Shown one piece after another: positions 6,827 to 59,031 of a stretch of DNA of 64,000 nt; positions within the stretch are counted from its first letter, which is position 1, and every line of letters begins with the position of its first letter. The notes under the pieces are model-generated. The model was not told where the DNA came from. It ran no database searches and saw only the letters and a program-made list of their open reading frames with translations. The translations under genes and the position numbers were made by a program. Origin of the DNA: a virus (taxonomy: Duplodnaviria; Caudoviricetes); IMG/VR virus record IMGVR_UViG_3300027255_000165; one strand, given 5' to 3'.

Positions 6827-8035
6827 TTAGAACAAAGAAGTTGAGTAAATTAGATTACGATTAATGGACTGTAATCCAACTGACGTTAACAATCGATTCA
6901 AGGGATCAATGATTGATTTTTCAAACTGTGTTTCGTAATCAACCTGTGGCGCAAATTCATAAGGATGATCTCCTGGAAGGTATGCAAATACGTCTGAAAT
7001 TCCACCTGGATCAATTGCGTGATAGATCTTCAACTTCTCACCATTACCAATCAGTCGATACTTTGATTTGAATTTTTGGTTGTTGTTCAACAAGAAGTTG
7101 TAATATCCTGCAGCCTTTACGTTGGGCGGACACTTTAGACCAAACTGAAATTCAATATGATCATCAACAATATATCTTTCAATGTTATTTGTTCTCTTAT
7201 TGAACGCAATTTCATCGAGCTTGGCCATCTTGAACTGCTTCTTGGCTTCGCTTAAGAATGATGTAAGTTTTTGAAGGGTGTCTGCTGTAGGGCCAGCCTC
7301 TTCATTAAACATAATCTTAAGGGCCTCTGTTAATTTAGCCCTAGCAAACGTAGGAGTAGAGGATTGAATGGTATCAAATCCAATGGTCTTTACTTTACTC
7401 AGTGGCTTATGGCGTTCAGTCGTAGGAATCTTATCATCCCACGCAATATCCTGAATGTACTTTTTCTTACTCATCCAAATGCCAGAGTAGGCCACTGTTT
7501 CTAGCTCAAAAACTAAGAAGTTATCGGTGTTGGCTGCTACTGCATACTTTTCCATTGCTTTAACAATATACTCTTTAATTCTAAAATTGTATACTGCTAG
7601 GATGAATGTATCAATGGTCATCGGTTCTCCTGTCCATTCACATGTTTTATACATCTCATCGAACTGTACGTAGCACGAATCAGTATCAATGTAAATTACA
7701 GATGGGCGGTGGCATTGTCCTTTAACTGTTACGCCGATGTGTTCGTGTAACTTAGTGTCTTTATGCCAAAAATCATGAAAGTACTTATTTAATACTTGTT
7801 CAGAATACAGGATAGCGTTTTGACCCTGTAAGGTAATTGATTCGGCAATATCTAGATTAAAGAAGTGAAACCACTTATTACCAAATGCACCGTAAACTGA
7901 GTTTAGCGTTACCTTAACCGCTTGCTCATAAGCCGTAAACTTGGCGGACTCTTTTTGATAATAGTCCACCAAGCTTTGTAGCTCGTCTTTTCCTAGTCGA
8001 TCTAGGGAAGTATTCTTTAGTTCTTCTAAAGTCAT
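6827..8035 (-). CDS. gp43: Family B DNA polymerase, C-terminal subunit (fingers, palm and thumb; gp43B-like)
   Basis: Motif B KVTLNSVYG, motif C YIDTDS, KKKY; ends IYSTSLF. Lacks the exonuclease domain and motif A. Confidence 0.92.
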   Translation of the reverse strand: MTLEELKNTSLDRLGKDELQSLVDYYQKESAKFTAYEQAVKVTLNSVYGAFGNKWFHFFNLDIAESITLQGQNAILYSEQVLNKYFHDFWHKDTKLHEHIGVTVKGQCHRPSVIYIDTDSCYVQFDEMYKTCEWTGEPMTIDTFILAVYNFRIKEYIVKAMEKYAVAANTDNFLVFELETVAYSGIWMSKKKYIQDIAWDDKIPTTERHKPLSKVKTIGFDTIQSSTPTFARAKLTEALKIMFNEEAGPTADTLQKLTSFLSEAKKQFKMAKLDEIAFNKRTNNIERYIVDDHIEFQFGLKCPPNVKAAGYYNFLLNNNQKFKSKYRLIGNGEKLKIYHAIDPGGISDVFAYLPGDHPYEFAPQVDYETQFEKSIIDPLNRLLTSVGLQSINRNLIYSTSLF

Positions 8036-11804: not shown

Positions 11805-11872
11805 GGGGTGTAACTTTACGATACATTGTATATATCATGGCTGTTACGAGGGGCTCTAAATATAATAACTGA

Positions 11873-13276
11873 TTAAAATCCTTTTAGTACCTTTTTAGCT
11901 TCTTCAGCTTTAGTGAAATACTCGTAAGATTTTGCCTTATATTCTTTACGCTGTGTGTAAAGATCTGAAAGAATTTGCTTCAATATTGAATCTTTCTTAT
12001 CGTACACAACTCCGTTAACACAGACGATTTCATCTTCATTCTTTCGTCTTTCAGGAATCTCAGACTTTGGAATGATTTCTTTATATGAGTCAGGTGAGAT
12101 GTTAAACTGTCGCATGATTGAGGGGTACAGTGAAGCAAAGTCAAATGCAGATACACCTTGATAGAAACCAACAACCGGTTCTTTAACATAAGCACCAGCA
12201 TATTGGCCATCCTTTGAACCTTCATCTCTTTGTTCTGATCCAATTCTCTTATTAAGGGCTGACATCTTACGTGCAATCAGAGCTTCCGTTACAGCAACTG
12301 GTGATGCAGCTTTATAGAGAGGCATCTTGGTGATTGAAGCCAGGGTCAATAGAACTTCCATTGACTTAAGCTGTTGATCTATATAATAGACTAGACATGA
12401 GTCAACTACGTTATAGAATACGTATTTTGTAAAGTCATTCTCGTAAAGGTCCTGTAAGGATCCATTATACTTGATCTTATTTGTCTTCAGTACTTGACCA
12501 GATACATAATCCAAAGCATTAGATTCTTTTACCTTGACCGTGCGATCGTACTTATCATACAATTGCATGTAATCTAAGATGCCGATGTGCAGCGGTCTAG
12601 AATCATTCTTATCAAGTGATTGAGTCATTGAGGCTTCTTTGATGTCAATCTGGAGACGCTTACATCGGTTAACGATATATTGCCAGTCATAGTTGATAAA
12701 GTTCCAGCCCGTCATCATCGGAAACTTAGGTAAGAACCGATAAATGAATGTTGCCACCATGTCATGTTCATTCTTAAACTGACGGTATTCAAAGGTCCAA
12801 TCCTGATCGAATTGTTTGAAGTATTCATTAGTGTCAGCTTCGATTTTCTTAACTTTTTCAAGAGAAAGTTCTTCTAATCCAAGAACAATGGCCTTACGTT
12901 CTGGCGTAATGATTGAGAATGTTAGGATTCGTGATTTGGCTTCTTCAGCTTTAGGGAAACCATCTACGATCTCGGTTTCAATATCGACAAAGTATGTACG
13001 AGGAAGATTGTATGCAAAGATTTCTTCTTTGTCTCGTTCGGGTAAATTGTCTAAGTAATAGATCAAAGAGAACTTATTGAACTGGCGAGCAGGACCCAAC
13101 TTGATAGGACGACCGTCCCAGTTTGTCAAGGTCTCATGTTTATAACGATCCATTGGATCGGTGATGTACCAGTTCTTAAATTGCTCAACAGGGTAGCGCT
13201 TGAAATTAACCTTGCCTTCCTTGTCGTAATATGAAATAATGACTTCTTTGTCTCTTTGTTCTACGTCTAATAACAT
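11873..13276 (-). CDS. gp43: Family B DNA polymerase, N-terminal subunit (3'-5' exonuclease plus motif A; gp43A-like)
   Basis: ExoI VDIET, ExoII GWNFINYD, ExoIII YNVVD, GAYVKEP and motif A DFASLYPSI. Ends after the first fingers helix. Confidence 0.92.
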   Translation of the reverse strand: MLLDVEQRDKEVIISYYDKEGKVNFKRYPVEQFKNWYITDPMDRYKHETLTNWDGRPIKLGPARQFNKFSLIYYLDNLPERDKEEIFAYNLPRTYFVDIETEIVDGFPKAEEAKSRILTFSIITPERKAIVLGLEELSLEKVKKIEADTNEYFKQFDQDWTFEYRQFKNEHDMVATFIYRFLPKFPMMTGWNFINYDWQYIVNRCKRLQIDIKEASMTQSLDKNDSRPLHIGILDYMQLYDKYDRTVKVKESNALDYVSGQVLKTNKIKYNGSLQDLYENDFTKYVFYNVVDSCLVYYIDQQLKSMEVLLTLASITKMPLYKAASPVAVTEALIARKMSALNKRIGSEQRDEGSKDGQYAGAYVKEPVVGFYQGVSAFDFASLYPSIMRQFNISPDSYKEIIPKSEIPERRKNEDEIVCVNGVVYDKKDSILKQILSDLYTQRKEYKAKSYEYFTKAEEAKKVLKGF

Positions 13277-20806: not shown

Positions 20807-21367
20807 TTAATTGTTAGCAATGCCAATAATTTGACGAACCTTGCTAAGCATATTTCCTTTTTCGATCATTTCTTGATCTGGAATGGGAACTGAGCCCTTT
20901 TCATAATCTCCACCGCCAACAGATTCTTCTTCTGGTTGATCAGGTGAAAATGCCTTTAATTGTTTTTCAACAATGAATTCCTCCATTGTCATTAAGAGTT
21001 TACGTCTCTTTTTCTTTTTCTTACGATACTCTTCCTTAGCATCGCCTTGGCCGGCAGGTACATCTCCTGAACCATCGGAGCCGGCATCGGGTAAAACAGG
21101 GTCTCCCATCCCACCCAACATACCTGGACCAAGATTCGATAAAGACGCTCCACCCAACGTGCTGAACATCGTATCTTCCTTAACCTCTGGAAGACCTTCA
21201 TGGCTTGTTTCTGCAAAATCTTTAAGTTGTTTAAGTGTCATACTGTCTACTAGATCTGACACCTTATTTCTGTAAGTCGCGTCAACGTCTGAAAGTTGCA
21301 TATCGCCCTTCTTGACGGCGTATGCAACTCCCATTAAACGTTGTTGTGATTTACTAGTGCTTGGCAT
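20807..21367 (-). CDS. DUF3008-like N-terminal domain protein with a low-complexity linker
   Basis: MPSTSKSQQRLMGVAYAVKKG...LKDFAETSHEGLPE matches the DUF3008 pattern. Internal LMTMEEFIVE motif. Confidence 0.65.
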   Translation of the reverse strand: MPSTSKSQQRLMGVAYAVKKGDMQLSDVDATYRNKVSDLVDSMTLKQLKDFAETSHEGLPEVKEDTMFSTLGGASLSNLGPGMLGGMGDPVLPDAGSDGSGDVPAGQGDAKEEYRKKKKKRRKLLMTMEEFIVEKQLKAFSPDQPEEESVGGGDYEKGSVPIPDQEMIEKGNMLSKVRQIIGIANN

Positions 21368-21393: not shown

Positions 21394-22086
21394 TTAGACT
21401 CTAACGCCAGCAACTTTTGCCAATTCTCTTAACTTAGCTTGAGCTTGTTGAAATTTAGAAAATACTTCGTCGTATGTCTTTTTACGAGCTGCAACTTCAT
21501 CGCAACCCTTTTTAAGATCTTTACAAGTCTCTTTTACACCTTGTAATGCTGATCCTGCTTTCATAAAAGCTTTTCTTGATGATTTATATTCACCTTTAGC
21601 AAAAGAATATAGCGCTAACATATCCGATGACATTTTATCCTCTAACTTATCGCATTTAGCAATCACCTTTTCTGCAACTGCATCTGCTTTCGTCTCCTCT
21701 GCTTCGTCTCTCTCTTTCAAAGATTTCATCAAATTTTTCTTATCTGATGGAACGTGTTGCAACATTGCAGACCATTTAGAAGATTGATAACTCAATTCTC
21801 CAATAATTTGAATTGTTTTTGCAACAACTGGTCTAACTTTCTCTTGATCTTTGTCTTTATCACCACCTTTAAGCTTTTCTAATTCAGCTTCTAGATCTAG
21901 TTTGTTACCGTCTAGATCATTTAGGCGAAGTTCAGCCTCATCTTCATCAAAGTCGCCATTGTCCATAGCGTCTTGAACATCTTCCATTTCTTTTTCGATG
22001 TCCTGCAATTCTGCTTGAATCTCTTTAATTCTCTTCTCGTTAGAAGCTTCGAAGATGAATTGTTCAAATAGTTTTACGTGTTTCAT
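21394..22086 (-). CDS. Putative internal head protein, coiled-coil
   Basis: N-terminus MKHVKLFEQFIFE (CTS-like); TATAAATA immediately precedes the ATG. Confidence 0.6.
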   Translation of the reverse strand: MKHVKLFEQFIFEASNEKRIKEIQAELQDIEKEMEDVQDAMDNGDFDEDEAELRLNDLDGNKLDLEAELEKLKGGDKDKDQEKVRPVVAKTIQIIGELSYQSSKWSAMLQHVPSDKKNLMKSLKERDEAEETKADAVAEKVIAKCDKLEDKMSSDMLALYSFAKGEYKSSRKAFMKAGSALQGVKETCKDLKKGCDEVAARKKTYDEVFSKFQQAQAKLRELAKVAGVRV

Positions 22087-22124
22087 TATTTATAGATATG
22101 TTTAATCTTTAGTTGGTTTAATGA

Positions 22125-23132
22125 TTACCAAGCGTAATCCATGTCATTTACTTTTTTAACCTTGTCTTTAATGCTCTTAGCGTAGGTAGAAGCTTCTCTT
22201 GTGTAGTATTTACTACCTTCAGGATTTTTAGCATCGTTAGTGTATCTAACATAACTTTGATACATGTCAAGTATATTAGAAATAACGTTAGCGGCATCTC
22301 TCATAGAGATTTCGCGACCTTTCTTGTCGGTGCCAATGATCATTGACTCGTATCTACCCGCAGTCTTATTCTTAAGAGCGCTTTGAATATGTCCAGTTAC
22401 AGTTTCAATTGCCTTTTCAACCATACCGTCAATATCATCGCTGGCTGCTCTAGTTGCAAGAATCATTTTGTATCTGTTCATGTTCTCCTGTTTGAATTCC
22501 TTATCTGTCATGAATGCTGTTGCGCCTGCTTTAGCAGCTGATCTGCTAGCTTTTTGATCTGCAGCGCTTGGAAGAATAGATGGATCAAACATTAGAACTC
22601 TATCTGAAACCTCAGAAATTCTCTTGATGTTTGATAGACCTGAAGCACCATAACCAGAATGTTGCTTGTCAATGCCTATAGATGAAGCTTCTTTACCGTA
22701 TTTACCGGCATTCTTTAGTTTTGGTTCGTAAGGAGCTGATCTATTCCATCCTCTAGTGTAATCCATTGCAAACATTTCATTTTTACCATTTGCAATGGCC
22801 AAAAGAGTGTTACCTGGAATAGTACCGTAACCGGTGTATTTAGATTGACTGTGATCAGCGTATGGGTTTCCTTTCTCATTATCGGAGATATAGAAAAAGA
22901 TAGCGTTAGGGTGAGCTTTGGTCTTATAAGCCTCAGCTGGGTGTAGTTCAACCACTTGATCGTCAGTAATTTCATCTAGCTTAACCTTAGTGAAATTATA
23001 AACTGCTTTCATTATGTCCTTCCTAGCCGAAGATAGGCCAAGAATAGAAGCCAACTTTGAAGACTTGAATGCTTCGTTAACCTCTAATGACTCATTAACA
23101 AAGCTTTCGAATGTTGTGTGAATCTTATTCAT
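22125..23132 (-). CDS. Putative internal head protein
   Basis: N-terminus MNKIHTTFESFVNESLEVNEA. Confidence 0.55.
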   Translation of the reverse strand: MNKIHTTFESFVNESLEVNEAFKSSKLASILGLSSARKDIMKAVYNFTKVKLDEITDDQVVELHPAEAYKTKAHPNAIFFYISDNEKGNPYADHSQSKYTGYGTIPGNTLLAIANGKNEMFAMDYTRGWNRSAPYEPKLKNAGKYGKEASSIGIDKQHSGYGASGLSNIKRISEVSDRVLMFDPSILPSAADQKASRSAAKAGATAFMTDKEFKQENMNRYKMILATRAASDDIDGMVEKAIETVTGHIQSALKNKTAGRYESMIIGTDKKGREISMRDAANVISNILDMYQSYVRYTNDAKNPEGSKYYTREASTYAKSIKDKVKKVNDMDYAW

Positions 23133-24144
23133 TTTCGTTTACTGTTTTAATTTTAGATAGGATTCTCTGGCCGTACTTCGACAGTGAGATACCATCTTCT
23201 GAAACGTTGAAGTAGTGACGATTTGATTTCGCCCATCTTCTAGAAGCAGTAGAGAATTCCTTAATGATTGTTTCAAATTCTTCAGTCGTTACTTTACCGT
23301 CTGCAATTGCTTCGATGATCTTGTCTCTGACTGGACCAAACTTAGATACTGTGATCTGTGGATAGTTGTCAGTGTAACGTCTTTTTAGAGTGATTTTACC
23401 TTCGGTGATTTGTTCACCTTCTAGGATTACGATAGATGTAAGGCCACCCTTTGTGAATGAATCAACGTCCATTTTGAACTCGTGACCCATGATTTCGCTA
23501 AACATCTTAATCATGCCATAACCTTCAAGGGAAGATGGAGACATGTACGATGACATGTTCATTTGGAAACCACCTTTAACTTTAGAGATTCTTTTCAGAG
23601 CTTTATCAAAGCCAACCTCACTGAACACTTGTTGCATCGCATATCTGATGTCTTCCATGTTGTAACCTTTAGCTTCGTCAATTTCGCCTTCAATCTCAAC
23701 TTCGTTTTCTAGAGATTCTGGTACGCCCATTGCAAATTTGCTTAGATCTGGTTCGTAGTCCATACCAAAGCCGTATCTTACGTAATTAGCGCCTTGAGTA
23801 TCAACGAAAACACATTGACCGTAGTAGTCCTTAAGTTCACCTTGTTCGTGATTCAACCAAAGAATAAAGATCGTTTCAGTAGGTGTGTTTGCAAAATTAG
23901 CATAGATTCCTTTTGGTGCCATTTTACCCCAAACATCCTTAGATGTATAAACTGGAATGTGGGTTAGGTCTAGTTCTTTTTGCTGTGCGTCTTTCAGCTG
24001 AACAGCGTTTGAACCAAAAAGATCAGATGTGTAAGCTGGCTTTCTCTCAATGTTTCTACCACCATAAGTTTTGAACAGGGTATAAGCCTGATCTTCGTTG
24101 TAGAATTCATTTAAGAATGTTCCAAATGACTCAAATACTCTCAT
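23125..24144 (-). CDS. Putative internal head protein, modular
   Basis: N-terminus MRVFESFGTFLNE. Internal acidic junctions IDE/A and ITE/G precede distinct modules. Confidence 0.55.
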   Translation of the reverse strand: MRVFESFGTFLNEFYNEDQAYTLFKTYGGRNIERKPAYTSDLFGSNAVQLKDAQQKELDLTHIPVYTSKDVWGKMAPKGIYANFANTPTETIFILWLNHEQGELKDYYGQCVFVDTQGANYVRYGFGMDYEPDLSKFAMGVPESLENEVEIEGEIDEAKGYNMEDIRYAMQQVFSEVGFDKALKRISKVKGGFQMNMSSYMSPSSLEGYGMIKMFSEIMGHEFKMDVDSFTKGGLTSIVILEGEQITEGKITLKRRYTDNYPQITVSKFGPVRDKIIEAIADGKVTTEEFETIIKEFSTASRRWAKSNRHYFNVSEDGISLSKYGQRILSKIKTVNENE

Positions 24145-24182
24145 TTTTAAGTGTTGTCTTTTTTAATATCTTATTTTATATA

Positions 24183-25361
24183 TTACGCATCTTCTCTTAC
24201 TCTTAGTAGGGCTCCTGACATACCAAAGATGGCTTCTTTACCAGCTCCGTATTGTGATGCAATATCGGTTCCTTGAACCTTCTTCAACCCTGAAGTAATG
24301 TTCATTGCCTCTTTTCTAAAGACAACGAATTTCATTTTAGCGTATTTCTTTTCAACATTTGCAAGACCATCATTGATGTCTTTAACTAGCGATTCAACGC
24401 CTGCTCTAACATATTCGTTCTTTGCAAGCATTCTGTATAGTGCTTCTTCGTTTGAAACGTCAGCCATATTAACTTGCTTAATGATCTTAAATTTACCTGC
24501 TTTAATATCTGCTTCCTTTGCGGGTTCGATAATAAAAGACATGTTTGGATTACCGGGTGAAGTTGATTTCACCTCAATGATATCGTATCCTGTAGACCTA
24601 TTCGCTAATTGCTCTTTTGCAATCTTAATGAAATCAATCACAGAGCTAATAAGTTCTTTTGATACTTCACCTCTAGAAAAATCAGAAGCTGCTGATTTAC
24701 CTTCACCTCTTGAATTTACGGTCGCAGCTGCATTGAAGATTTCAGGGTGCATATCTTTTAGACCTGGAATTGCAACAATCTCTTCTGTGATTTCGGCAAC
24801 GTGTCTCATTTTTCTCAACCATACGAATTGAGAAGCTGCACCTGCATTACCCAATCTGAATGGAGAATGAGAGTCAGCGTATGACTTAACTTCGTATTGT
24901 CCTTTTTCATTGTGTGTTACGTCAAAGGATTCTCCGCCGCCTGAGATTCTAACACCATCAACCACCCAAGCCAACCACAATTCACCAGGACCAATACCCT
25001 TTGATTGCGTATTGAATAGACCATTTGAGAACGAAGATGAATTAACTTCTTTAAGATAGTTAGGCTGTAGGGCCTCAAGGCTCGAATACTTTCCAAGTCC
25101 TTCAACGAAGATTGCAAGATCCTTACCTGACAGGGAATTAAGTGTCTTAATCATGTCGGCAAAAGGTGAACCTCCTGTCCTTTGTAGGTTTTGAAGGTAC
25201 TTATCAAATTGTGCCTTCTTAGAAGAAACCGCTTTAGTAAGAGCAGGGTTCTTAATTCCGTATGCTGTGTATTCTTCAGTCTCGTTGATCAGCTGAAGTT
25301 CTCTTGCAAAATTAGATCTAATTAAATTACTCATTGCTAAACTTGTTGATGAACTGTTCAA
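24183..25361 (-). CDS. Hypothetical protein with a PD-(D/E)xK nuclease-like motif
   Basis: GIGPGELWL...GGGESFDV-x7-YEVKSY; the likely start is Met10. Confidence 0.5.
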   Translation of the reverse strand: MNSSSTSLAMSNLIRSNFARELQLINETEEYTAYGIKNPALTKAVSSKKAQFDKYLQNLQRTGGSPFADMIKTLNSLSGKDLAIFVEGLGKYSSLEALQPNYLKEVNSSSFSNGLFNTQSKGIGPGELWLAWVVDGVRISGGGESFDVTHNEKGQYEVKSYADSHSPFRLGNAGAASQFVWLRKMRHVAEITEEIVAIPGLKDMHPEIFNAAATVNSRGEGKSAASDFSRGEVSKELISSVIDFIKIAKEQLANRSTGYDIIEVKSTSPGNPNMSFIIEPAKEADIKAGKFKIIKQVNMADVSNEEALYRMLAKNEYVRAGVESLVKDINDGLANVEKKYAKMKFVVFRKEAMNITSGLKKVQGTDIASQYGAGKEAIFGMSGALLRVREDA

Positions 25362-27192
25362 AGGTCATCAATTCTTCATTTACTTTTGACTCCGCAGCTG
25401 TCATAGCTTTTAAAAGCTCAGACTGTAGAACTGGGTACATTCCGTGAAGTGACTTTGGTGTCATTCTTTGAAACTCTGTCTTATTATCGGACATCATTGC
25501 GTTTCTAACCGCAGTTGCTGAGATGTCATCATCTGTTCTGTGAATTTCATGCATACCAAACTCAGGTAGAACGTTCAATTGTTCTCTGTACGTTTCTTTG
25601 TATGCCTGTGAAGAGTAAGCTGCCATTCTATCTGTACCTGTACCCCATAAGACTGGTTCGTACTTAGGTCTTAACTCATTGAATAGGGCGTCAATTGCAG
25701 CGAATGGAACAACAATAATATCTTTTAGGAACTTGTATTCCCTTTGAACTGCCTTAAACATTTTCATTTGCATTGCCTCGTCATAAGGTCTTTTGAATGC
25801 ATCTTCCTTTTTAGCCGTCTTTGACTTAACTAGGAATACTACAACTGGTAGGCCGTTCTGATCATGTAGAGACTGAAGAACTTTAGCGTGACCTAGAGTA
25901 AAAGGTTGGAATCTGCCAACAAACATATTTACTTTTTGTTTACCATGTTCTAGGGTCTTAACCTTTAGGGCTTCATTAACTTCTCCTTCTGGAGCATCTT
26001 CCTGAATTGAAGACCACTTCTTAAATGATGTAAAGTCCATTACGTCGTTCTCTTCTAATTTTGCGTCAATCTGCTCGTAAATCTTATCGATGATCTCGTT
26101 TAGCTGTGCAACCATGTCCTCGGTTAGAATATCACTTGCCTTCTCTCTTTTATTTCTAAAAGAAGATAAAACAATTTTGAAAAGCTCAGATAGGATTGGG
26201 TTGTTGACGTATTTTAAGGTTTGTTCGTTTTTCAAAAACGCGGTGTTTAGATTAAAGGCTTCATTCTTTGCGAAATCAGCTGTCTCAAACTTAACACCAA
26301 TATATTTTGCGGCATTAGCCTTAATGTAATCGTTAAATGATTCAGACATGATTTCTATAAATCTTCTGTCTTTCTTTTCTTCAACTAGTTTGTATTGTGA
26401 AAAATCATGGTTTGTGAAGTATTCAATAACGTCTACCATTGTGATTTGATAAACATCAGAAGACTTTCTTTCTGTTTCTTCATTCTTTCTTCTATAATCT
26501 TCTAGCTTGAAAGACTTCATTGATTTGCCATCAACAAACGAAACAACTAAACCATCAATTTCTTCATTAACTGATTCATTCAGCGCAGTTCTAGACATGC
26601 CTGAATTAAAAATGTTATAGATGTCTCTGGTGAATGAACGATTTTCGTATACTTTTTCAAATTCATTATCGTTCATTTCTAGAATTTTGATCAATTGCTC
26701 CTTCTGGAACATCGTCAGCATGCCTTCGAAGATCACAGGTGGCTTTTGAACATCAAGTTTCTTTGCCCACTTGTTTAGGACCTCAGTGTCTCTAATCACC
26801 TTAGAAACCCTGCCTGATTCGTTAAGAACCTGGATATGCGTTAGAATTAAATTATTCTTAGGAAGAAGAGCGTACTTAAAATTTGGAGTTTCATTTTCAA
26901 TCAGATAATCAAAACCAAACTTCCAATCCTTCGGCATGTCGCTCTTCATTTCATCACCTAAACCTTGAAAGTGACGAATAGCATTTTCATAAAATCTAAC
27001 GATAGTACGATCTACAATATCCATAGCTCTTTCAGAACCTGATTTGTAGTACTTGTTGGTTAGATCATCTCTTCTGACGTGAAATGATGAAGCAGCGATC
27101 TTCTCAACAGCGTGAACCTTTTGGGTTAACATTGCCATGAAGTTTTCGCGATTCGTATCGTTGAAGTGATCTCTAAGTTTAGGTAGTGCCAT
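25327..27192 (-). CDS. Fusion of a degenerate RNA-ligase-fold domain and a C-terminal HxGH nucleotidyltransferase (phage cytidylyltransferase-like)
   Basis: N-terminal VEKIAASS, FGFDY, PPVIFEG, IDGLVV and FKL. C-terminal VGRFQPFTLGH, GTDR and ISATAVR. Confidence 0.7.
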   Translation of the reverse strand: MALPKLRDHFNDTNRENFMAMLTQKVHAVEKIAASSFHVRRDDLTNKYYKSGSERAMDIVDRTIVRFYENAIRHFQGLGDEMKSDMPKDWKFGFDYLIENETPNFKYALLPKNNLILTHIQVLNESGRVSKVIRDTEVLNKWAKKLDVQKPPVIFEGMLTMFQKEQLIKILEMNDNEFEKVYENRSFTRDIYNIFNSGMSRTALNESVNEEIDGLVVSFVDGKSMKSFKLEDYRRKNEETERKSSDVYQITMVDVIEYFTNHDFSQYKLVEEKKDRRFIEIMSESFNDYIKANAAKYIGVKFETADFAKNEAFNLNTAFLKNEQTLKYVNNPILSELFKIVLSSFRNKREKASDILTEDMVAQLNEIIDKIYEQIDAKLEENDVMDFTSFKKWSSIQEDAPEGEVNEALKVKTLEHGKQKVNMFVGRFQPFTLGHAKVLQSLHDQNGLPVVVFLVKSKTAKKEDAFKRPYDEAMQMKMFKAVQREYKFLKDIIVVPFAAIDALFNELRPKYEPVLWGTGTDRMAAYSSQAYKETYREQLNVLPEFGMHEIHRTDDDISATAVRNAMMSDNKTEFQRMTPKSLHGMYPVLQSELLKAMTAAESKVNEELMTFEQFINKFSNE

Positions 27193-27194
27193 TT

Positions 27195-28484
27195 TTATCT
27201 TCCGTATTTAATAATACCCATTAGCTGGTTGATTGCAGCAAAGGTGCCAGTTAGCTTATATATTTTACCCTTATACTTGAACACTAGACCTTCAGAAGGA
27301 ATGATTGAATCAATTCCACCAATTCTTGAAAGTCTGTCAAGTTCAGCTTCAACCTTTTGAATTTGCTTAACGTCTCCGCCTTTCTTAATCTTACCCGCCT
27401 CTGTTCTAATCTGATTGTGAAGTCTTTGCATTTCCTGATCAGGTGAAGCAGCCAAGAAGTTTGAAGCATTCTTTAGAACCTCAGAACCAAACTCTAGGAA
27501 AAGATCTTCAAATGGTCTAATGTTTTCTTTGTATTTCTTACCAGCATCCATCTTATCGTATTGCTTGATCTTATCCATACCTGCAGCGTCAACGAGTTTG
27601 GCCATGGCTCTAAAGTCCATGCCTTGTTTGTTGTTATAGGCCCATCTCTGAAGAAGACCTTCTTTTACGTCTTGTGTAAGGTTAGGGAATGAAGCATCGA
27701 TCTCTTCTCTCCACCACATTTCATGATAACGTGAAACCTCGTCTGAATCAGAAAGCTTGTAACGATTCTTAAGGTCTTCAATCTTCTTCATGAAATAAGG
27801 TAGCTTGGCAGAAAAGTCTTGGTGCTTTCTCAGAACAAGAACCTGTGGAGGAATGATCGTGAATGTTTTACCAATGTGAGCATTAACGTCTTGTAGAATC
27901 TTTGTAAGCTCTTTAGCTGCTCCAGGACCAGACTCACCAGTAATGTTTCCGTTACCGTCAGTGTATTTAATTCCGTGGAACTGAATTACATCTTTATCGT
28001 AATTGATGACATTAGAGTTACCCGAAAAGATTAACTCCATATTCATGAAGTTCTTACCGCCGTCAAAGTATTTTTCTTGTGAATCTGACTTCAATTTGCC
28101 TAGGGCTGAAGCTAAATCATTAGCTGCCATAGTAAATGTCTTACGAACTCCCTCTGAAGGGTGATCAGCAAACATTGAAGTAACTCCACTAAGGTCCAAT
28201 GGGTTTTTCAACTGACCTGCATTTCTTGCAAACATTGTAACGCCATCTTTAACTGTTGCAAAGATGTTTTGACCATCTGTTTTTTCAGTTGGATCTTCTT
28301 CGAAGTTCAATTCTCCCTTTAGACCTGCTTCAATCATGGCTTTAAAGTCGCCAAACGTTAGATCTTTGTCATCAAACGGATGTGACATGTGACCAGCAGC
28401 ACCACCCTCTAAAACGAGGTCAGAGCCGGCCAAGCTTTGACCTGCTCTTTCAACGATGAATTGGTTATAAGTTAATAATTTCAT
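27195..28484 (-). CDS. Ligase-fold nucleotidyltransferase (DUF6267-like)
   Basis: GGAAGHMSHPFD, motif I TEKTDGQN, NMELIF, SEGLVFK and YKLTG. N-terminus MKLLTYNQFIVE. Confidence 0.7.
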   Translation of the reverse strand: MKLLTYNQFIVERAGQSLAGSDLVLEGGAAGHMSHPFDDKDLTFGDFKAMIEAGLKGELNFEEDPTEKTDGQNIFATVKDGVTMFARNAGQLKNPLDLSGVTSMFADHPSEGVRKTFTMAANDLASALGKLKSDSQEKYFDGGKNFMNMELIFSGNSNVINYDKDVIQFHGIKYTDGNGNITGESGPGAAKELTKILQDVNAHIGKTFTIIPPQVLVLRKHQDFSAKLPYFMKKIEDLKNRYKLSDSDEVSRYHEMWWREEIDASFPNLTQDVKEGLLQRWAYNNKQGMDFRAMAKLVDAAGMDKIKQYDKMDAGKKYKENIRPFEDLFLEFGSEVLKNASNFLAASPDQEMQRLHNQIRTEAGKIKKGGDVKQIQKVEAELDRLSRIGGIDSIIPSEGLVFKYKGKIYKLTGTFAAINQLMGIIKYGR

Positions 28485-28765
28485 TAGATTTTATCTTGAA
28501 ATACTATTTTACCGGTAGCATCTTCAAGTGTGAAATGATAACCGGACGTTGGGTAACGCTTTTTAAGAGTTGTCCAGTTCGCTGGAACGGCGTCGGGAAT
28601 GTTAATTACTTCCTGATGAATGACTGCTCCAACCTGGGCGCCTTTAGCGTGAACTACTAGTGTCACTGGGAAGGCAGCATCTTTCAATGATTTCTTAATC
28701 TTTGAGAAAGATACTTCTTCATTAACAAATGCTTCGTACAATTTTACGCGTTTCATAGTGACCAT
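28484..28765 (-). CDS. Small putative internal head protein
   Basis: MKRVKLYEAFVNEE N-terminus. Confidence 0.55.
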   Translation of the reverse strand: MVTMKRVKLYEAFVNEEVSFSKIKKSLKDAAFPVTLVVHAKGAQVGAVIHQEVINIPDAVPANWTTLKKRYPTSGYHFTLEDATGKIVFQDKI

Positions 28766-29055
28766 GGGTGATTTTTAGCAACAAACTTTTTACCGTGAAT
28801 AAGGCCTAGAACATCTCTGTCCTTTTCACTGTGTTGTAATTTGAATGTATCGTGATCATATTTCCAATGAGCCTCTTTAGAACCTTTACGAAAACCGTAT
28901 GTCATATCCTGCTTCTTGTCATAAGATACCATGTTATCAGGGTGAAGCTCCTTGTATGATTCAACAAATTTGTTGTACTCATAAGGAGTCATCTGATTAT
29001 AGGTCATGAAAATACCTTCAGAGATGAACTGTTCATATAGTTTAACGTGTTTCAT
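28753..29055 (-). CDS. Small putative internal head protein
   Basis: MKHVKLYEQFISEG N-terminus. Confidence 0.55.
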   Translation of the reverse strand: MKHVKLYEQFISEGIFMTYNQMTPYEYNKFVESYKELHPDNMVSYDKKQDMTYGFRKGSKEAHWKYDHDTFKLQHSEKDRDVLGLIHGKKFVAKNHPWSL

Positions 29056-29070
29056 AGGGCTAATATAACC

Positions 29071-29099
29071 AAAAAAACCGACCCGGAAAAATCCGGGTC
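29071..29099 (-). terminator. Terminator after the 616-aa gene, overlapping a promoter-like element
   Basis: GACCCGGA-4nt-TCCGGGTC followed by GGTTTTTTT on the minus strand. Confidence 0.75.
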
Positions 29100-29108
29100 A
29101 GATTATTT

Positions 29109-30959
29109 TTATCCTTTAGCGATCTTTGCAAGCTCTTTAGCAACGTTCTTTGCTTCAGCGCCTTTTAGACCACCTTCTGTTTGAACAAGATTGAATAGCT
29201 CGTCTTCTGACATTGATTGAAGTTCAGACTCAGAGTGCTTACCTTTCTTTAGATCAACTAGAGACACATAAAGTTCCATTGCCTTTTGCTCGTCCTTAGC
29301 TGCCTCTTCGACCTTGTAAGTCTTACCATCGAATTCAAACTCTTCTTCGCCAGCTTCTTTAGCCTTTCTTACTGCGTCACCGAAAGCATTGCCTTCTTCA
29401 ACTTCATCAGACTCGCGAACTGGAACAATACCTAGTTTGCTAGATGCTTTGCCAAGGTTGTTTTCAACTGCTTCAACGTTTTTAATGATATTCTGAATGG
29501 CCTTTCTCCAAGCTGCGTCGGTTGTTTCTTCAGCTAGATCATTTAGCTTTGCGTATAGATCTTCAATTAGACCGCCGACTTCGTCGTAAATATCTACTTC
29601 AGCTTCATATACTTTTGATTCTTTAATGTATTCTGCTAAGTCTTCGTCACACCATCCATAATCACAATCTGCTAATACAGTTTCAAGGTCTTTTCTCTTA
29701 CCTTGCATTAAGATAACTGGGTGACCACCTGCTGGACCGTCCATTTGCTTGTTAATAATTTTAACATTATTCTTCTTTAAGAATTTTAAGAAGTCTTTAT
29801 TGTCTGGATCCATTGCGTCCATTTCAACTTCTGCTTCGAATAATTGCTCATTCTCTTCATTGACTACTGCTTCAAAAGCTGGAACAAGATCTCTATCTCC
29901 ATAAAGGTCGATCATGTACCACTTGCCGTCTCTTTCGTCATAAAGGTATGCATATTCTGCACCATTAGCGTCAGCGTCGTTGATATACTTCTTCAAATTC
30001 TTAACTGAACCCTTAAGAGGTGTCATAGAGTTTTTATCGTTATAGAACTTAATCTTATTGATGTCAGCCTCTAGACCTGAATTATCTCCCTTTGTGATAA
30101 CTGCATCAACATCAGAACCAGATTTGTAACCTTTCTTAATAACTGGCAACATGTGTTCTGGGTAAGAATCGTAGTGAGTGTATACTGATGCAATCTCGCC
30201 TGACTTATAAATCTTACCGAATTGGCCTCTTGTACCTTCTTCAATGATTTGCTCTAGAGAGTTTAGGTTAACTGACTCGTTAAGATTGAATTTTGTGATA
30301 GCGTTAAGAAGCTTATCAGCCGCGTCATTTTCACCAATTTCTTTTAGGTAATCTACTGTGCCGTTAGCGATTGCATAACCGTCCCACTTAGCAGCGTTAG
30401 CGATGTCTGAATAAACTTGACCTTGGCCCTTTGCTCTCGATGCAGAACCGATTGCCTTTGACGTAACGATTTCTTGGTGAAAGTTAGCATCTTCCATTGC
30501 ATCAGCGTAAACCCTAGCGATTGCATTTAGTTCTTTAACGCCTGACTTTTTCCAAGCATTGACTACTGAACTACGCTCTCTTTTGCCTTCGTTAACTTCT
30601 TCGGTTTCCTTTGCTTCCTCTGTCTCAGATTCTTTCAAAGTGATTGGGTATTTCTTACCGTTCCATTCGAACTCTTTTTTACCCTCTCTTTTTGCCTTTG
30701 AAGCAGCGAAAATGAAAGCTCTACCTTCAGCAATTCCAGCCTCTTCTTCGTTTAGATCGAATAGTTCGGCGGTGAAAGCCTCTAACTGATCTTCTGTAAG
30801 TTCAGAAGCTCTAGTTACGTTATATTTCTTCAGAAGCCCATTAAATGAAGCGGCCGCTTCACCTCTTGAAACTTCTTTTTGTTGGTTCTCGGCCTCTTCT
30901 CTAAGCTGTGTTTTTAGCGTAGAAAATGACTTGAAATTTTGAATACGTTCCATTTGCAA
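29109..30959 (-). CDS. Modular, polyprotein-like putative head protein
   Basis: 616 aa with modules separated by xxE junctions and an internal repeat AF..A..KAK..G..EFE(W/F).GK.Y. Confidence 0.6.
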   Translation of the reverse strand: MQMERIQNFKSFSTLKTQLREEAENQQKEVSRGEAAASFNGLLKKYNVTRASELTEDQLEAFTAELFDLNEEEAGIAEGRAFIFAASKAKREGKKEFEWNGKKYPITLKESETEEAKETEEVNEGKRERSSVVNAWKKSGVKELNAIARVYADAMEDANFHQEIVTSKAIGSASRAKGQGQVYSDIANAAKWDGYAIANGTVDYLKEIGENDAADKLLNAITKFNLNESVNLNSLEQIIEEGTRGQFGKIYKSGEIASVYTHYDSYPEHMLPVIKKGYKSGSDVDAVITKGDNSGLEADINKIKFYNDKNSMTPLKGSVKNLKKYINDADANGAEYAYLYDERDGKWYMIDLYGDRDLVPAFEAVVNEENEQLFEAEVEMDAMDPDNKDFLKFLKKNNVKIINKQMDGPAGGHPVILMQGKRKDLETVLADCDYGWCDEDLAEYIKESKVYEAEVDIYDEVGGLIEDLYAKLNDLAEETTDAAWRKAIQNIIKNVEAVENNLGKASSKLGIVPVRESDEVEEGNAFGDAVRKAKEAGEEEFEFDGKTYKVEEAAKDEQKAMELYVSLVDLKKGKHSESELQSMSEDELFNLVQTEGGLKGAEAKNVAKELAKIAKG

Positions 30960-30994
30960 ATGATTATGTATTTTTGTAGTATGTTATCTTAAGA

Positions 30995-32503
30995 CTATAT
31001 ATCACCCTCAAAGGTTACCCTTTTAATTTCATATCTAAACTTTTCTTGTCTATAGATCTTTTGGCGGGCAATACCGTGTTTATATAGGTAGTTGTGATGG
31101 CCTTCGTATGTAATATCGTCAACGAAGTCAATGATATTTACAGCATCCTTTGATTCATGTTGTCTAAGGCCACGACCAATTGACTGTCTAATAATGATCT
31201 CGGATTTGAAAGACTCGGTGAAAAAGATGTTGTGAATCTTTTTAATTGAGATACCTGTCGAGAACGTTCCATAAGACGCGACGATGATAATGTCATCACC
31301 TTGTTCCATCTTCTTTTTATATTCTTCTCTAATATCCTTATCAGTTCCTCCATCAACATAGTAGACTGCCTTGTTACTTCTTCTACGAAGTTCTTCGTAT
31401 AGTCTTTTACCGTGTTCAATTCTATGGAATAGCACAAGTGAGTTGTTTGGAATCTTAGCGATTACTTTACTAATAAAGTTTAATCTTCCAGGTGATTGTA
31501 TAATGTAGTTTTGTTCAAGCTGAAATACGTCTTTATTTTCGTATCTGTTTGTTGACAATTCCATAAACGCCTTACGTGCTGTTTCTGGTGCGTAATTCAT
31601 TTCAATTACTTTCACATTACACTTTGCAATATGACCTTCATCTTGTAAAAAAGCGGCCTTAACCTCAGTGATAAGAGGTCCAGTATGTGACATTAAGGTT
31701 AAACGATCTAGTGTGTTATCCTTTGGAATAGTACCTGATAAACCAAACCTATAGGTCGCGTTTTCACACTTCTGTAGAATGGTTTTGATTGAGGCTGATT
31801 TGGCCTTGTGCGTTTCATCGACAATCACACAATCAAACTGTTCAAAGAAGTCTTTTCCCTTTTTAACTAGCGATTGATATGTTCCTATAACAATGTTTCT
31901 AGAGTCTTTAATCTTTTGACCAGCATAAACTTGCTGAATCATCATTTGAATTCTATTCTCGTAATTGTATTCTCCAAAGTCCTCAGTTGCTTGAACAACC
32001 AGGGATACGTTAGGTACGATAAACAAAATCTTTTTTGCCTTTTGTTTCTCTAGCATATATGCAACTGCCATGAAAGAAATCATTGTCTTACCGGCTGATG
32101 TAGCAAGCTCAGATAGAGAGCGTCTGAATTTTAGAATGTTAAATGCGGCTTCTATTTGATAGTCCCTTGGAGTCATTTCTGATCTTTCAAAAAACTCAAG
32201 AGACCATTCTTCGAATCCTTCTGATGTTATGTCTCTGTCAAACAGCCGAGTAATGCCATTGATCTTAAGCTCATAGTTGTAGCTCTTACAGATCTTCATC
32301 ACTTCTTGCCATAAACCGGAAGGAATCCACTTATCGTCTTTTACATACGAGATGTAACCGTCCCAAACACCCCTTTTAACTAGGGGGTTGAAACGCCAAC
32401 CCTCGATTCGACGAGTCATCGATATGTTCAACTGCTCAAGTTCAAGATCAGTTGCCTGATCAATTCTTAAGAACTGAGCGTTGTCAGTTAAAGTTAGCTC
32501 CAC
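30995..32503 (-). CDS. uvsW: SF2 DNA helicase UvsW
   Basis: PRDYQ, ATSAGKT, VDETH, GLSGT, ASYGTFSTGISI and QSIGRGLR. Confidence 0.93.
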   Translation of the reverse strand: MELTLTDNAQFLRIDQATDLELEQLNISMTRRIEGWRFNPLVKRGVWDGYISYVKDDKWIPSGLWQEVMKICKSYNYELKINGITRLFDRDITSEGFEEWSLEFFERSEMTPRDYQIEAAFNILKFRRSLSELATSAGKTMISFMAVAYMLEKQKAKKILFIVPNVSLVVQATEDFGEYNYENRIQMMIQQVYAGQKIKDSRNIVIGTYQSLVKKGKDFFEQFDCVIVDETHKAKSASIKTILQKCENATYRFGLSGTIPKDNTLDRLTLMSHTGPLITEVKAAFLQDEGHIAKCNVKVIEMNYAPETARKAFMELSTNRYENKDVFQLEQNYIIQSPGRLNFISKVIAKIPNNSLVLFHRIEHGKRLYEELRRRSNKAVYYVDGGTDKDIREEYKKKMEQGDDIIIVASYGTFSTGISIKKIHNIFFTESFKSEIIIRQSIGRGLRQHESKDAVNIIDFVDDITYEGHHNYLYKHGIARQKIYRQEKFRYEIKRVTFEGDI

Positions 32504-35461: not shown

Positions 35462-35568
35462 ATTCTATATATCCCGCCCGTAGAGATTTGTTTACACCAA
35501 ACTTATTATCTGATTATATTTAATGGTCTCTGAAACAATCGGGCCCAGGAAGCATAGAAGGATTGGTT

Positions 35569-45672: not shown

Positions 45673-45732
45673 TAAACTGTTAATATGTTATTAAGCGCTT
45701 GAGGTATATATCAACCACCTAATAACACCAGC

Positions 45733-56815: not shown

Positions 56816-56835
56816 GGCTATCTTTATATATCACA

Positions 56836-58969: not shown

Positions 58970-59031
58970 GCAGTAGACACTATCTTACTATTTAAGTTTA
59001 TATATCTACCGCACCGGGTAGCGGTTTAGAC

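What the first reader, a model, noticed from the sequence alone, without database searches (positions are those of the whole stretch)
29109..30959. 616-aa polyprotein-like head protein built from modules between Glu junctions, with an internal repeat
Seen: segments are bounded by IAE/G, LKE/S, VNE/G, LNE/S, IEE/G, LFE/A, IKE/S and VEE/G. One module repeats: GRAFIFAASKAKREGKKEFEWNGKKYPITLKE (30630-30725) and GNAFGDAVRKAKEAGEEEFEFDGKTYKVEE (29304-29393). Known: T4-type prohead proteases cut after (I/L)xE-like sites. Inference: one ORF packs several small effectors that are released as separate peptides in the capsid.
Basis: partly seen in the sequence, partly recalled or inferred. Interest (0 to 1): 0.7.

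Follow-up and report, generated by a model that had tools for sequence, protein, structure and literature searches.

The report
Shuffled capsid-cargo polyprotein of marine phage
A large uncultured marine T4-like phage encodes one 614-residue protein made of about eight small independent modules joined by floppy linkers that all end in the glutamate motif cut by T4-type head proteases, so it is probably loaded into the capsid and chopped into several small injected proteins, and near-identical phages swap whole modules in frame at these linkers.

Summary
The ORF (minus strand, 29109-30953 from its ATG, 614 aa) contains all eight quoted junctions and the internal repeat (15/31 identical, E 3e-8). 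Aliphatic-x-Glu followed by a small residue is about 5-fold enriched.

It is not a structural head gene. It lies between UvsW helicase and a run of small genes in the replication region. These neighbours begin with T4-like capsid-targeting tags, and two internal linkers of the ORF repeat that heptad.

AlphaFold gives no global fold (pTM 0.33). Confident modules are separated by disordered stretches at exactly the Glu junctions.

In about 200 relatives the residue before five module types is Glu in 233/233 distinct contexts and P3 is Val/Ile/Leu in 215/233. Modules also occur as stand-alone genes.

A contig 100% identical over 2.9 kb differs by one 183-nt in-frame cassette flanked by an 11-nt repeat in linker DNA. 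Other relatives permute or replace modules.

A late-type promoter motif, its own terminator and late-gene codon usage fit virion loading.

Cleavage and packaging remain inferred. Earlier first-reader notes of this scan, on this same genome, had flagged the tags and a second polyprotein.

The parts
30996..31003 (-). GATATATA motif, candidate late-type promoter, 43 nt upstream of the ATG
   Evidence: There are 7 matches in the window, all on the coding strand (2.2 +/- 1.6 expected). Several lie just upstream of fibre or baseplate genes.
29109..30953 (-). Polyprotein ORF, 614 aa from ATG (stop 29109-29111); an in-frame TTG lies two codons upstream at 30959
   Evidence: database copy P0002 is 614 aa, on 86 contigs, the longest 223 kb
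30894..30953 (-). Residues 1-20: N-terminal leader MERIQNFKSF...LREE, a variant of the capsid-targeting tag (Phe7/Phe10 spaced as T4 Tyr4/Phe7); first aliphatic-x-Glu site is LRE19
   Evidence: The N-termini of relatives grade from the canonical MQKLKSFDQFATE to this form. The T4 tag and its determinant positions come from PMC8442874 and PMC9026906. pLDDT is below 50 for residues 1-14.
30726..30893 (-). Residues 21-76: acidic helical N-terminal module ending IAE76|G
   Evidence: Helices 10-43 and 54-64; disordered at 67-78. 76 relatives align from residue 1.
30630..30725 (-). Residues 77-108: basic copy of the 30-32 aa mini-module (helix plus beta-hairpin), bounded by E76|G and LKE108|S
30588..30629 (-). 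Residues 109-122: acidic disordered linker ending VNE122|G
   Evidence: pLDDT below 50 for residues 105-123
30276..30587 (-). Residues 123-226: all-helical module (pLDDT about 90) with the ANFHQE motif, ending LNE226|S
30237..30275 (-). Residues 227-239: disordered linker carrying a full targeting-tag-like heptad, LEQIIEE239|G
   Evidence: E239 and G240 are at least 90% conserved in 68 sequences.
29856..30236 (-). Residues 240-366: alpha/beta module (phrog_1987 family); its tail is a second tag-like heptad, FEAVVNE366|E
   Evidence: phrog_1987 E 6.6e-16. Stand-alone genes in Synechococcus myophages start with Met and then align from G240 onward. Predicted-structure hits begin at query residue 240 and hit residue 2.
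29835..29855 (-). Residues 367-373: short linker ending LFE373|A
   Evidence: pLDDT below 50 for residues 363-368. P1 is Glu in 37/37 contexts before this module type.
29619..29834 (-). Residues 374-445: alpha/beta module (phrog_5922 family) ending IKE445|S; replaced or moved in relatives
29604..29618 (-). Residues 446-450: linker SKVYE450|A; site of the 183-nt cassette polymorphism
   Evidence: 11-nt direct repeat TGAAGCTGAAG / TGAAGCCGAAG
29394..29603 (-). Residues 451-520: helical-hairpin module plus disordered tail with VRE514|S and VEE520|G
   Evidence: Helices 455-476 and 480-507; pLDDT below 50 for residues 507-522. Only generic hairpin matches were found.
29304..29393 (-). Residues 521-550: acidic copy of the mini-module, bounded by VEE520|G and VEE550|A
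   Evidence: The profile finds 1264 representative clusters.
29112..29303 (-). Residues 551-614: C-terminal helical module (pLDDT about 85)
29078..29101 (-). Intrinsic-terminator-like hairpin plus T-run directly after the stop codon
   Evidence: 10-pair stem, 7 G-C pairs, T7 tail

Best explanation
The ORF is a capsid-cargo polyprotein of a T4-like phage. It is made late. A capsid-targeting-type leader (and possibly the internal tag-like heptads) brings the whole chain into the prohead core. The phage's T4-type prohead serine protease then cuts after Glu in the aliphatic-x-Glu sites exposed in the disordered linkers. This would release about eight small folded proteins or peptides of 3-14 kDa, plus short acidic linker peptides. 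The products stay in the head and enter the host with the DNA, as T4 internal proteins do. The gene most likely arose, and keeps changing, by in-frame joining and exchange of tagged cargo cassettes, with short homologies in the linker-coding DNA serving as recombination sites. Shown here: the modular anatomy, the conserved junction motif, the stand-alone forms of modules, cassette exchange at linkers, and late-gene signals. Inferred: packaging, cleavage, injection, and an anti-defence or host-takeover role for the modules.
For: (1) Fold. The AlphaFold2 model has pTM 0.33. pLDDT is below 50 only at 1-14, 67-78, 105-123, 225-239, 363-368, 446-454 and 507-522, which are exactly the Glu junctions. 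Confident modules lie between them.
(2) Junction conservation. The residue before five module types is Glu in 86/86, 50/50, 37/37, 20/20 and 40/40 distinct sequence contexts. P3 is V/I/L in 73/86, 50/50, 36/37, 19/20 and 37/40. P2 and P4-P6 vary. T4 gp21 cuts after L/I-x-E (PMC9026906).
(3) Targeting tags. Six neighbouring genes begin with tags such as MKHVKLYEQFISE and MKRVKLYEAFVNE. These match the T4 tag MKTYQEFIAE (PMC8442874) at its four determinant positions (PMC9026906). The strict heptad recurs inside this ORF at 233 and 360. The ORF's own leader grades into canonical tags in relatives.
(4) Stand-alone modules. These include tag plus phrog_1987 domain (P0140), tag plus mini-module (P0301, P0262), and cyanophage genes that start exactly at the junction residue. 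The window's own genes 22125-23132 and 23125-24144 are modules of polyproteins in relatives.
(5) Cassette exchange. A contig with 100.000% identity over 2857 nt and 99.85% over 1999 nt differs only by one 183-nt in-frame cassette flanked by an 11-nt repeat that encodes the linker. Other relatives have modules permuted or replaced.
(6) Late-gene signals. A GATATATA motif lies 43 nt upstream, as before fibre and baseplate genes. The ORF has its own terminator. AGA makes up 13/17 Arg codons, like structural genes (192/243) and unlike replication genes (59/187, Fisher p 4e-4).
(7) Related contig G004. It carries a Peptidase_S77 protease fused to a scaffold full of aliphatic-x-Glu repeats, tagged small genes, and a polyprotein homologue with two mini-modules abutting directly at IKE|G.
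Against: There is no direct evidence of packaging or cleavage. The window's own genome could not be searched, so its protease and capsid cleavage sites were not read. In T4 the internal proteins are cut only once, at the tag (PMC8442874). The ORF's own leader lacks the aliphatic-x-Glu directly after the aromatic pair. The alignment of the G004 capsid protein to T4 gp23 was too weak to place a cleavage site. Cyanophage homologues of the central module carry no tag, so that domain can work without being packaged. Part of the Glu conservation could reflect acidic linker composition: Glu is also common at P2 and P4-P6.
Confidence: 0.55

Rival explanations
1. The protein is loaded into the head through its leader but stays one chain, or loses only its leader. 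It would be a beads-on-a-string 'polyvalent' cargo. On this reading the conserved linkers are scars of gene fusion and convenient recombination sites, not cleavage sites.
For: T4 internal proteins are cut only once (PMC8442874). Large multidomain injected proteins that are not fully processed are known (PMC5512222). The linker microhomology demonstrably mediates cassette indels.
Against: Fusion scars would not keep Glu at P1 in 233/233 contexts and an aliphatic P3 in 215/233 while the neighbouring linker positions vary. Junctions with no tag remnant at all (THE|G, LKE|G, IKE|G between tandem mini-modules) still keep the motif. The sites lie in predicted disorder, where a protease with so few determinants (PMC9026906) would be expected to cut.
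Confidence: 0.2
2. It is a cytoplasmic multidomain phage protein that is never packaged. The tag-like motifs and acidic linkers would serve some other purpose (flexible spacers, a degradation or localisation signal), and the resemblance to T4 tags would be superficial.
For: The gene sits in the replication region next to UvsW and primase. The central domain occurs untagged in cyanophages. No virion data exist.
Against: Late-type promoter motif and late-gene codon usage contrast with the flanking replication genes. The tag matches all four functional positions of the T4 sequence and heads six unrelated neighbouring genes. In T4 the internal-protein genes also lie outside the head gene cluster (established knowledge of the T4 map).
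Confidence: 0.12
3. It is a prohead core or scaffold component, like T4 gp22, gp67 or gp68. It would be cut into fragments and expelled during maturation rather than delivered as cargo.
For: T4 core proteins are cut into many fragments at the same motif (PMC9026906). The scaffold of the related contig is full of such sites.
Against: The protein consists of compact alpha/beta and helical domains, not long coiled coils. Its module content varies between near-identical genomes, which is unlike an essential assembly protein. It lies far from the protease-scaffold-capsid genes in the related contig.
Confidence: 0.05

Closest known systems
T4 internal proteins Ip1, Ip2, Ip3 (and Alt) with the capsid-targeting sequence, processed by prohead protease gp21
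   Same: A short N-terminal tag with the same determinant spacing (aromatic-x-x-aromatic-aliphatic-x-Glu). Cleavage motif aliphatic-x-Glu. Non-core, hypervariable, unrelated cargo domains that share only the tag. Genes lie outside the head cluster. Sources: PMC9026906, PMC3012670, PMC8442874, PMC12373910.
   Different: T4 cargoes are separate genes, each cut once at its tag. Here about eight cargo modules are joined in one reading frame with about a dozen candidate sites, and the ORF's own leader is a divergent form of the tag. No module resembles Ip1-3 or Alt.
Modular shuffling of T-even internal-protein loci and hyperplastic regions through conserved intergenic cassettes (PeSLs)
   Same: Conserved short flanking sequences act as recombination sites that insert, delete or replace adaptive cargo genes between close relatives (PMC2839356, which also cites Repoila et al. 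1994 for the IP loci). Here a 183-nt cassette is gained or lost between 100% identical flanks at an 11-nt repeat.
   Different: The recombination sites here lie inside a reading frame and encode the linker or cleavage site. Exchange must therefore keep the frame, and the cassettes carry no promoter or terminator of their own.
Polyvalent proteins of phages and conjugative elements (Iyer et al. 2017, PMC5512222)
   Same: Many unrelated small domains in one polypeptide. Predicted to travel with the DNA into the host. Possibly split into separate effectors by proteolysis.
   Different: None of the characteristic polyvalent-protein domains or an embedded peptidase was found by Pfam. Processing here would be in trans, by the prohead protease at a uniform linker motif.
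Multiply cleaved ejection / inner-body proteins of giant phages phiKZ and SPN3US
   Same: Head-internal proteins cut after Glu at a short motif by a gp21-related protease, often at several sites (PMC9026906, PMC5694885, PMC10052503).
   Different: In those phages cleavage mostly removes propeptides from single proteins. A hypervariable chain of interchangeable stand-alone modules has not, to my knowledge, been described there. No sequence relation was found.

Membership tests
T4-type capsid-targeted internal (injected) proteins | N-terminal tag of about 10-19 residues with targeting residues at T4 positions 4 and 7 (aromatic, three apart) | tested here: met
   The leader MERIQNFKSF has Phe7 and Phe10. 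Relatives grade into MQKLKSFDQFATE. Neighbouring genes carry canonical tags. T4 determinants are from PMC9026906.
T4-type capsid-targeted internal (injected) proteins | Processing residues directly after the targeting residues (aliphatic at T4 position 8, Glu at 10) | tested here: not met
   The leader continues S-T-L, and the first aliphatic-x-Glu is LRE at residues 17-19. The full heptad is present only internally, at 233-239 and 360-366.
T4-type capsid-targeted internal (injected) proteins | Genome encodes a gp21-type prohead protease (Peptidase_S77) | tested here: inconclusive
   The window's own assembly is not held. A related 60-kb contig that carries a polyprotein homologue does encode Peptidase_S77 (E 1.9e-16).
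T4-type capsid-targeted internal (injected) proteins | Late expression together with virion genes | tested here: inconclusive
   There is a GATATATA motif 43 nt upstream and late-like codon usage, AGA 13/17. Contigs from four RNA libraries cover the gene, but they cannot show timing or exclude DNA carry-over.
T4-type capsid-targeted internal (injected) proteins | Physically present in the head, cleaved after Glu, ejected with the DNA | not testable with these tools
   Needs virion proteomics or in vitro cleavage.
Protease-processed viral polyprotein | Independently folding units separated by accessible linkers that carry one conserved cleavage motif | tested here: met
   The disordered linkers coincide with the junctions. 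P1 is Glu in 233/233 and P3 is aliphatic in 215/233 contexts. Units occur alone elsewhere.
Polyvalent proteins (Iyer et al. 2017) | Characteristic domain repertoire (for example metallopeptidase, ADP-ribosyltransferase, ParB-like, methylase or helicase domains) | tested here: not met
   There were no Pfam hits above cut-off in the ORF. DUF5661 was the only hit above its cut-off in relatives.
Prohead scaffold/core proteins (gp22/gp67/gp68-like) | Conserved, in or near the head gene cluster, coiled-coil or repetitive scaffold architecture | tested here: not met
   It lies beside UvsW. Its domains are compact. Module content differs between near-identical genomes.

The most novel reading that the evidence does not exclude
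Marine T4-like phages carry an 'in-frame integron' of capsid cargo. The same short linker would serve three roles: a capsid-targeting remnant, the prohead-protease cleavage site, and the recombination site. Anti-defence or takeover modules could then be swapped as cassettes within one reading frame and loaded in fixed proportion behind a single leader. One product would be a highly conserved 30-residue peptide, present in 1-4 copies per precursor in more than a thousand protein clusters. It would be released like a peptide from a prohormone and injected into the host.
Probability: 0.3. Interest if true: 0.8.

Novelty: new variant of a known kind. Interest (0 to 1): 0.62.

Why it matters
Proteins injected with phage DNA act before any phage gene is expressed. 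In T4 all three characterised ones disable restriction systems (PMC12373910). If this family is processed as proposed, abundant marine phages pack a whole changeable set of such first-strike proteins into one precursor. That gives a simple sequence rule (tag-like leader plus aliphatic-x-Glu linkers) for finding injected cargo in metagenomes. It gives hundreds of small stand-alone domains to test as anti-defence factors. It also gives a natural design for loading several proteins into a T4-type capsid from one construct. Finally, it shows domain shuffling caught in the act between genomes that are otherwise identical.

Tried and rejected
- Own genome: it is not held, so its prohead protease and capsid cleavage sites could not be read. 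The nearest held record, G001, is a 20-kb fragment without a protease.
- Capsid cleavage site in a relative: I tried to place it by aligning the G004 capsid protein to T4 gp23. The match was too weak (E 2.6e-4, low-confidence alignment) to use.
- Module functions: Pfam gave nothing above cut-off. PHROGs gave only families of unknown function.
- Module folds with the whole model: Foldseek against PDB gave no match at E <= 0.001. VIA-align gave only generic helical-hairpin matches for residues 451-512. AlphaFold DB, BFVD and the Atlas returned only uncharacterised stand-alone proteins for residues 240-360. Single modules were not folded separately, so unknown folds are not claimed.
- Huge-phage record: LR756500.1 (UvsX 61% identical) has a Peptidase_S77 gene but no mini-module match, so it was not informative.
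- Canonical T4 late promoter: TATAAATA occurs once in the window and not at this gene. Sigma-70-like matches are at chance level.
- First module clustering: single linkage over regex-cut pieces merged most pieces into one family and was abandoned in favour of anchor-based junction counts.
- RNA-library contigs: they cannot rank expression or define transcript ends. The similar contig ends at 30963 and 30965 in two studies are only a weak hint.
- Literature: full-text searches for the mini-module sequence, DUF5661 or the central-module motif found no paper.

Full report
**The observation.** The ORF is on the minus strand. From the TTG at 30959 it has 616 codons. The database copy begins at the ATG at 30953 and has 614 residues, and it was seen on 86 contigs up to 223 kb long. 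I number from that ATG. The repeat is significant: 15/31 identical, E 3e-8. [ILVF]-x-E-[GSA] occurs 11 times against 4.0 +/- 1.9 in shuffles. [VIL]-x-E-[GAS] is five times denser than in the other 55 proteins of the window.

**Context.** This is a T4-like genome but not a head module. Upstream lie a UvsW-type helicase and a primase. Further along are RNR, a split family-B polymerase, UvsX, gp41-like helicase and SbcCD. Fibre and baseplate genes fill 37-64 kb. The nearest record by UvsX (61%) is an uncultured 462-kb phage.

The six genes downstream (21394-29055) start with MKHVKLFEQFIFE, MNKIHTTFESFVNE, MRVFESFGTFLNE, MKLLTYNQFIVE, MKRVKLYEAFVNE and MKHVKLYEQFISE. An earlier first-reader note of this scan pointed me to these tags, and I checked them myself. 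The T4 capsid-targeting sequence is MKTYQEFIAE (PMC8442874). Its residues 4 and 7 direct targeting and residues 8 and 10 direct processing (PMC9026906). The tags here have the same aromatic-x-x-aromatic-aliphatic-x-Glu spacing.

The strict heptad occurs at residue 7-8 of four neighbours. It occurs twice inside the ORF, as LEQIIEE239|G and FEAVVNE366|E. The ORF's own leader, MERIQNFKSF, keeps the aromatic pair but not the adjacent cleavage site. Relatives show a graded series from MQKLKSFDQFATE through MKRIDTFKSFTDL to this form.

**Anatomy.** An AlphaFold2 model built on 68 relatives has pTM 0.33. pLDDT is below 50 only at 1-14, 67-78, 105-123, 225-239, 363-368, 446-454 and 507-522. Each of these stretches contains one or two of the Glu junctions. 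Between them are confident units:
- a helical domain, residues 123-226;
- an alpha/beta domain, 240-362;
- a smaller alpha/beta domain, 374-445;
- a helical hairpin, 455-507;
- two helix-plus-hairpin mini-modules, 77-108 and 521-550;
- a helical C-terminal domain.

**Relatives.** More than 600 metagenomic proteins match. Their lengths and coverage vary widely. Read side by side, they are different strings of a shared pool of modules joined by linkers such as ESVVNE|A, ESVEVNE|G and EVEE|G.

I anchored on conserved module starts and counted only distinct contexts. The preceding residue is Glu in 86/86, 50/50, 37/37, 20/20 and 40/40 cases for five module types. P3 is Val, Ile or Leu in 73/86, 50/50, 36/37, 19/20 and 37/40. 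P2 and P4-P6 vary. This is the T4 gp21 motif L/I-x-E (PMC9026906), widened to include Val. The second refutation criterion, non-conserved junction Glu, also fails.

**Modules as stand-alone genes.**
- The 240-366 domain (phrog_1987) is a separate gene in Synechococcus myophages. It begins with Met and then aligns from G240 onward, and it has no tag.
- A metagenomic 157-residue protein is a canonical tag plus this domain.
- Predicted-structure hits start at query residue 240 and hit residue 2.
- A profile of the mini-module finds 1264 representative clusters, with up to four copies per protein. These include a 58-residue gene that is tag plus one mini-module and an 84-residue gene that is tag plus two.
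- The window's genes 22125-23132 and 23125-24144 are, in relatives, modules of polyproteins that also contain the central domains.
- A related 60-kb contig encodes several pieces together. It has a Peptidase_S77 protease fused to a scaffold full of aliphatic-x-Glu repeats and several tagged small genes. It also has an 891-residue polyprotein with two mini-modules abutting directly at IKE|G.

**Exchange at the linkers.** One contig is 100.000% identical to the window over 2857 nt and 99.85% over the next 1999 nt. It carries an extra 183 nt (61 codons) in frame after YEAE, flanked by TGAAGCTGAAG and TGAAGCCGAAG. Other relatives in the same UvsW-linked position insert a different cassette, replace the 374-445 module, or swap the order of the 374-445 and 451-520 modules. 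Contigs from RNA libraries show the same rearranged joints. T4-type recombination needs only short homology, and conserved flanking cassettes are known to shuffle internal-protein loci (PMC2839356). Here the shuffling happens inside a reading frame.

**Timing.**
- GATATATA occurs seven times in the window, always on the coding strand. It lies before fibre and baseplate genes and also 43 nt before this ATG. Other first-reader notes of the scan had proposed it as the late promoter.
- A strong terminator hairpin follows the stop codon.
- Arg is encoded by AGA in 13/17 cases. Structural genes use it in 192/243 cases and replication genes in 59/187 (p 4e-4). The tagged neighbours behave the same way, while the flanking replication genes do not.

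**Interpretation.** The best reading is a late-made cargo precursor that a tag-like leader takes into the prohead core. The prohead protease would cut it at the exposed linker sites into small proteins that are injected with the DNA. Packaging and cleavage are inferred, not shown. T4 internal proteins are cut only once (PMC8442874). The own genome's protease could not be read. No module has a known function. I give this reading 0.55, an uncleaved packaged chain 0.2, a non-packaged cytoplasmic protein 0.12, and a scaffold role 0.05.

**Novelty.** Tags, the Glu-specific protease, hypervariable injected proteins and cassette shuffling are all established for T-even phages. Multidomain 'polyvalent' injected proteins are also known (PMC5512222). 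Four things appear new. Many cargoes are fused in one frame with uniform cleavage-type linkers. Whole modules are exchanged in frame at those linkers between otherwise identical genomes. The 30-residue mini-module is widespread. All of this occurs in uncultured marine T4-like phages. I found no paper on these sequences. Notes of this scan report further tagged clusters and a second polyprotein elsewhere in the same genome, which I could not check.

Noticed in passing
window 25327-27192 (minus strand), C-terminus; also 20807-21367, residues ~125-133: The 621-aa cytidylyltransferase-like protein ends with a linker plus a tag-like sequence (ESKVNE-ELMTFEQFINKFSNE-stop) and overlaps the next gene's start. 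The 186-aa protein has an internal K-rich stretch followed by MTMEEFIVE. Both look like fusion or fission points of tagged cassettes.
   Followed up: partly
window 30996-31003, 35466-35473, 45705-45712, 51770-51777, 56825-56832, 58999-59006, 11829-11836: GATATATA occurs 7 times, always on the coding (minus) strand, against 2.2 expected. It mostly lies shortly upstream of virion genes. It is a candidate late promoter replacing T4's TATAAATA.
   Followed up: partly
window-wide codon usage: There is a sharp split in Arg codons. Structural genes and the tagged cassette use AGA (about 79%), while replication genes use mostly CGT/CGA (AGA 32%). This gives a usable classifier of late versus early genes in this phage.
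   Followed up: yes
window 11873-13276 and 6827-8035: The family-B DNA polymerase is split into two genes, separated by both ribonucleotide reductase subunits and another ORF.
   Followed up: no
L015/G004 30321-32264 (minus strand): In the related contig the Peptidase_S77 prohead protease is fused to a scaffold-like region. That region has about ten tandem ~14-residue repeats of the type SIQYSEHVAE|K, each ending in an aliphatic-x-Glu site.
   Followed up: partly
window 22047-22086, 28717-28756, 29016-29055: The tag-coding 40 nt of three genes are 68-88% identical at the DNA level. This is enough to act as recombination targets between cassettes.
   Followed up: no
window 30963-30965: Contigs from RNA libraries of two different studies end 10-12 nt upstream of the ATG. 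This is a weak hint of a transcript start downstream of the GATATATA motif, but contigs cannot prove ends.
   Followed up: no
relatives P0005, P0024, P0032 (inserted module GISPEV...): One interchangeable 67-residue cassette begins with a hydrophobic, membrane-helix-like stretch. This is unusual for a protein meant to sit in a DNA-filled capsid.
   Followed up: no
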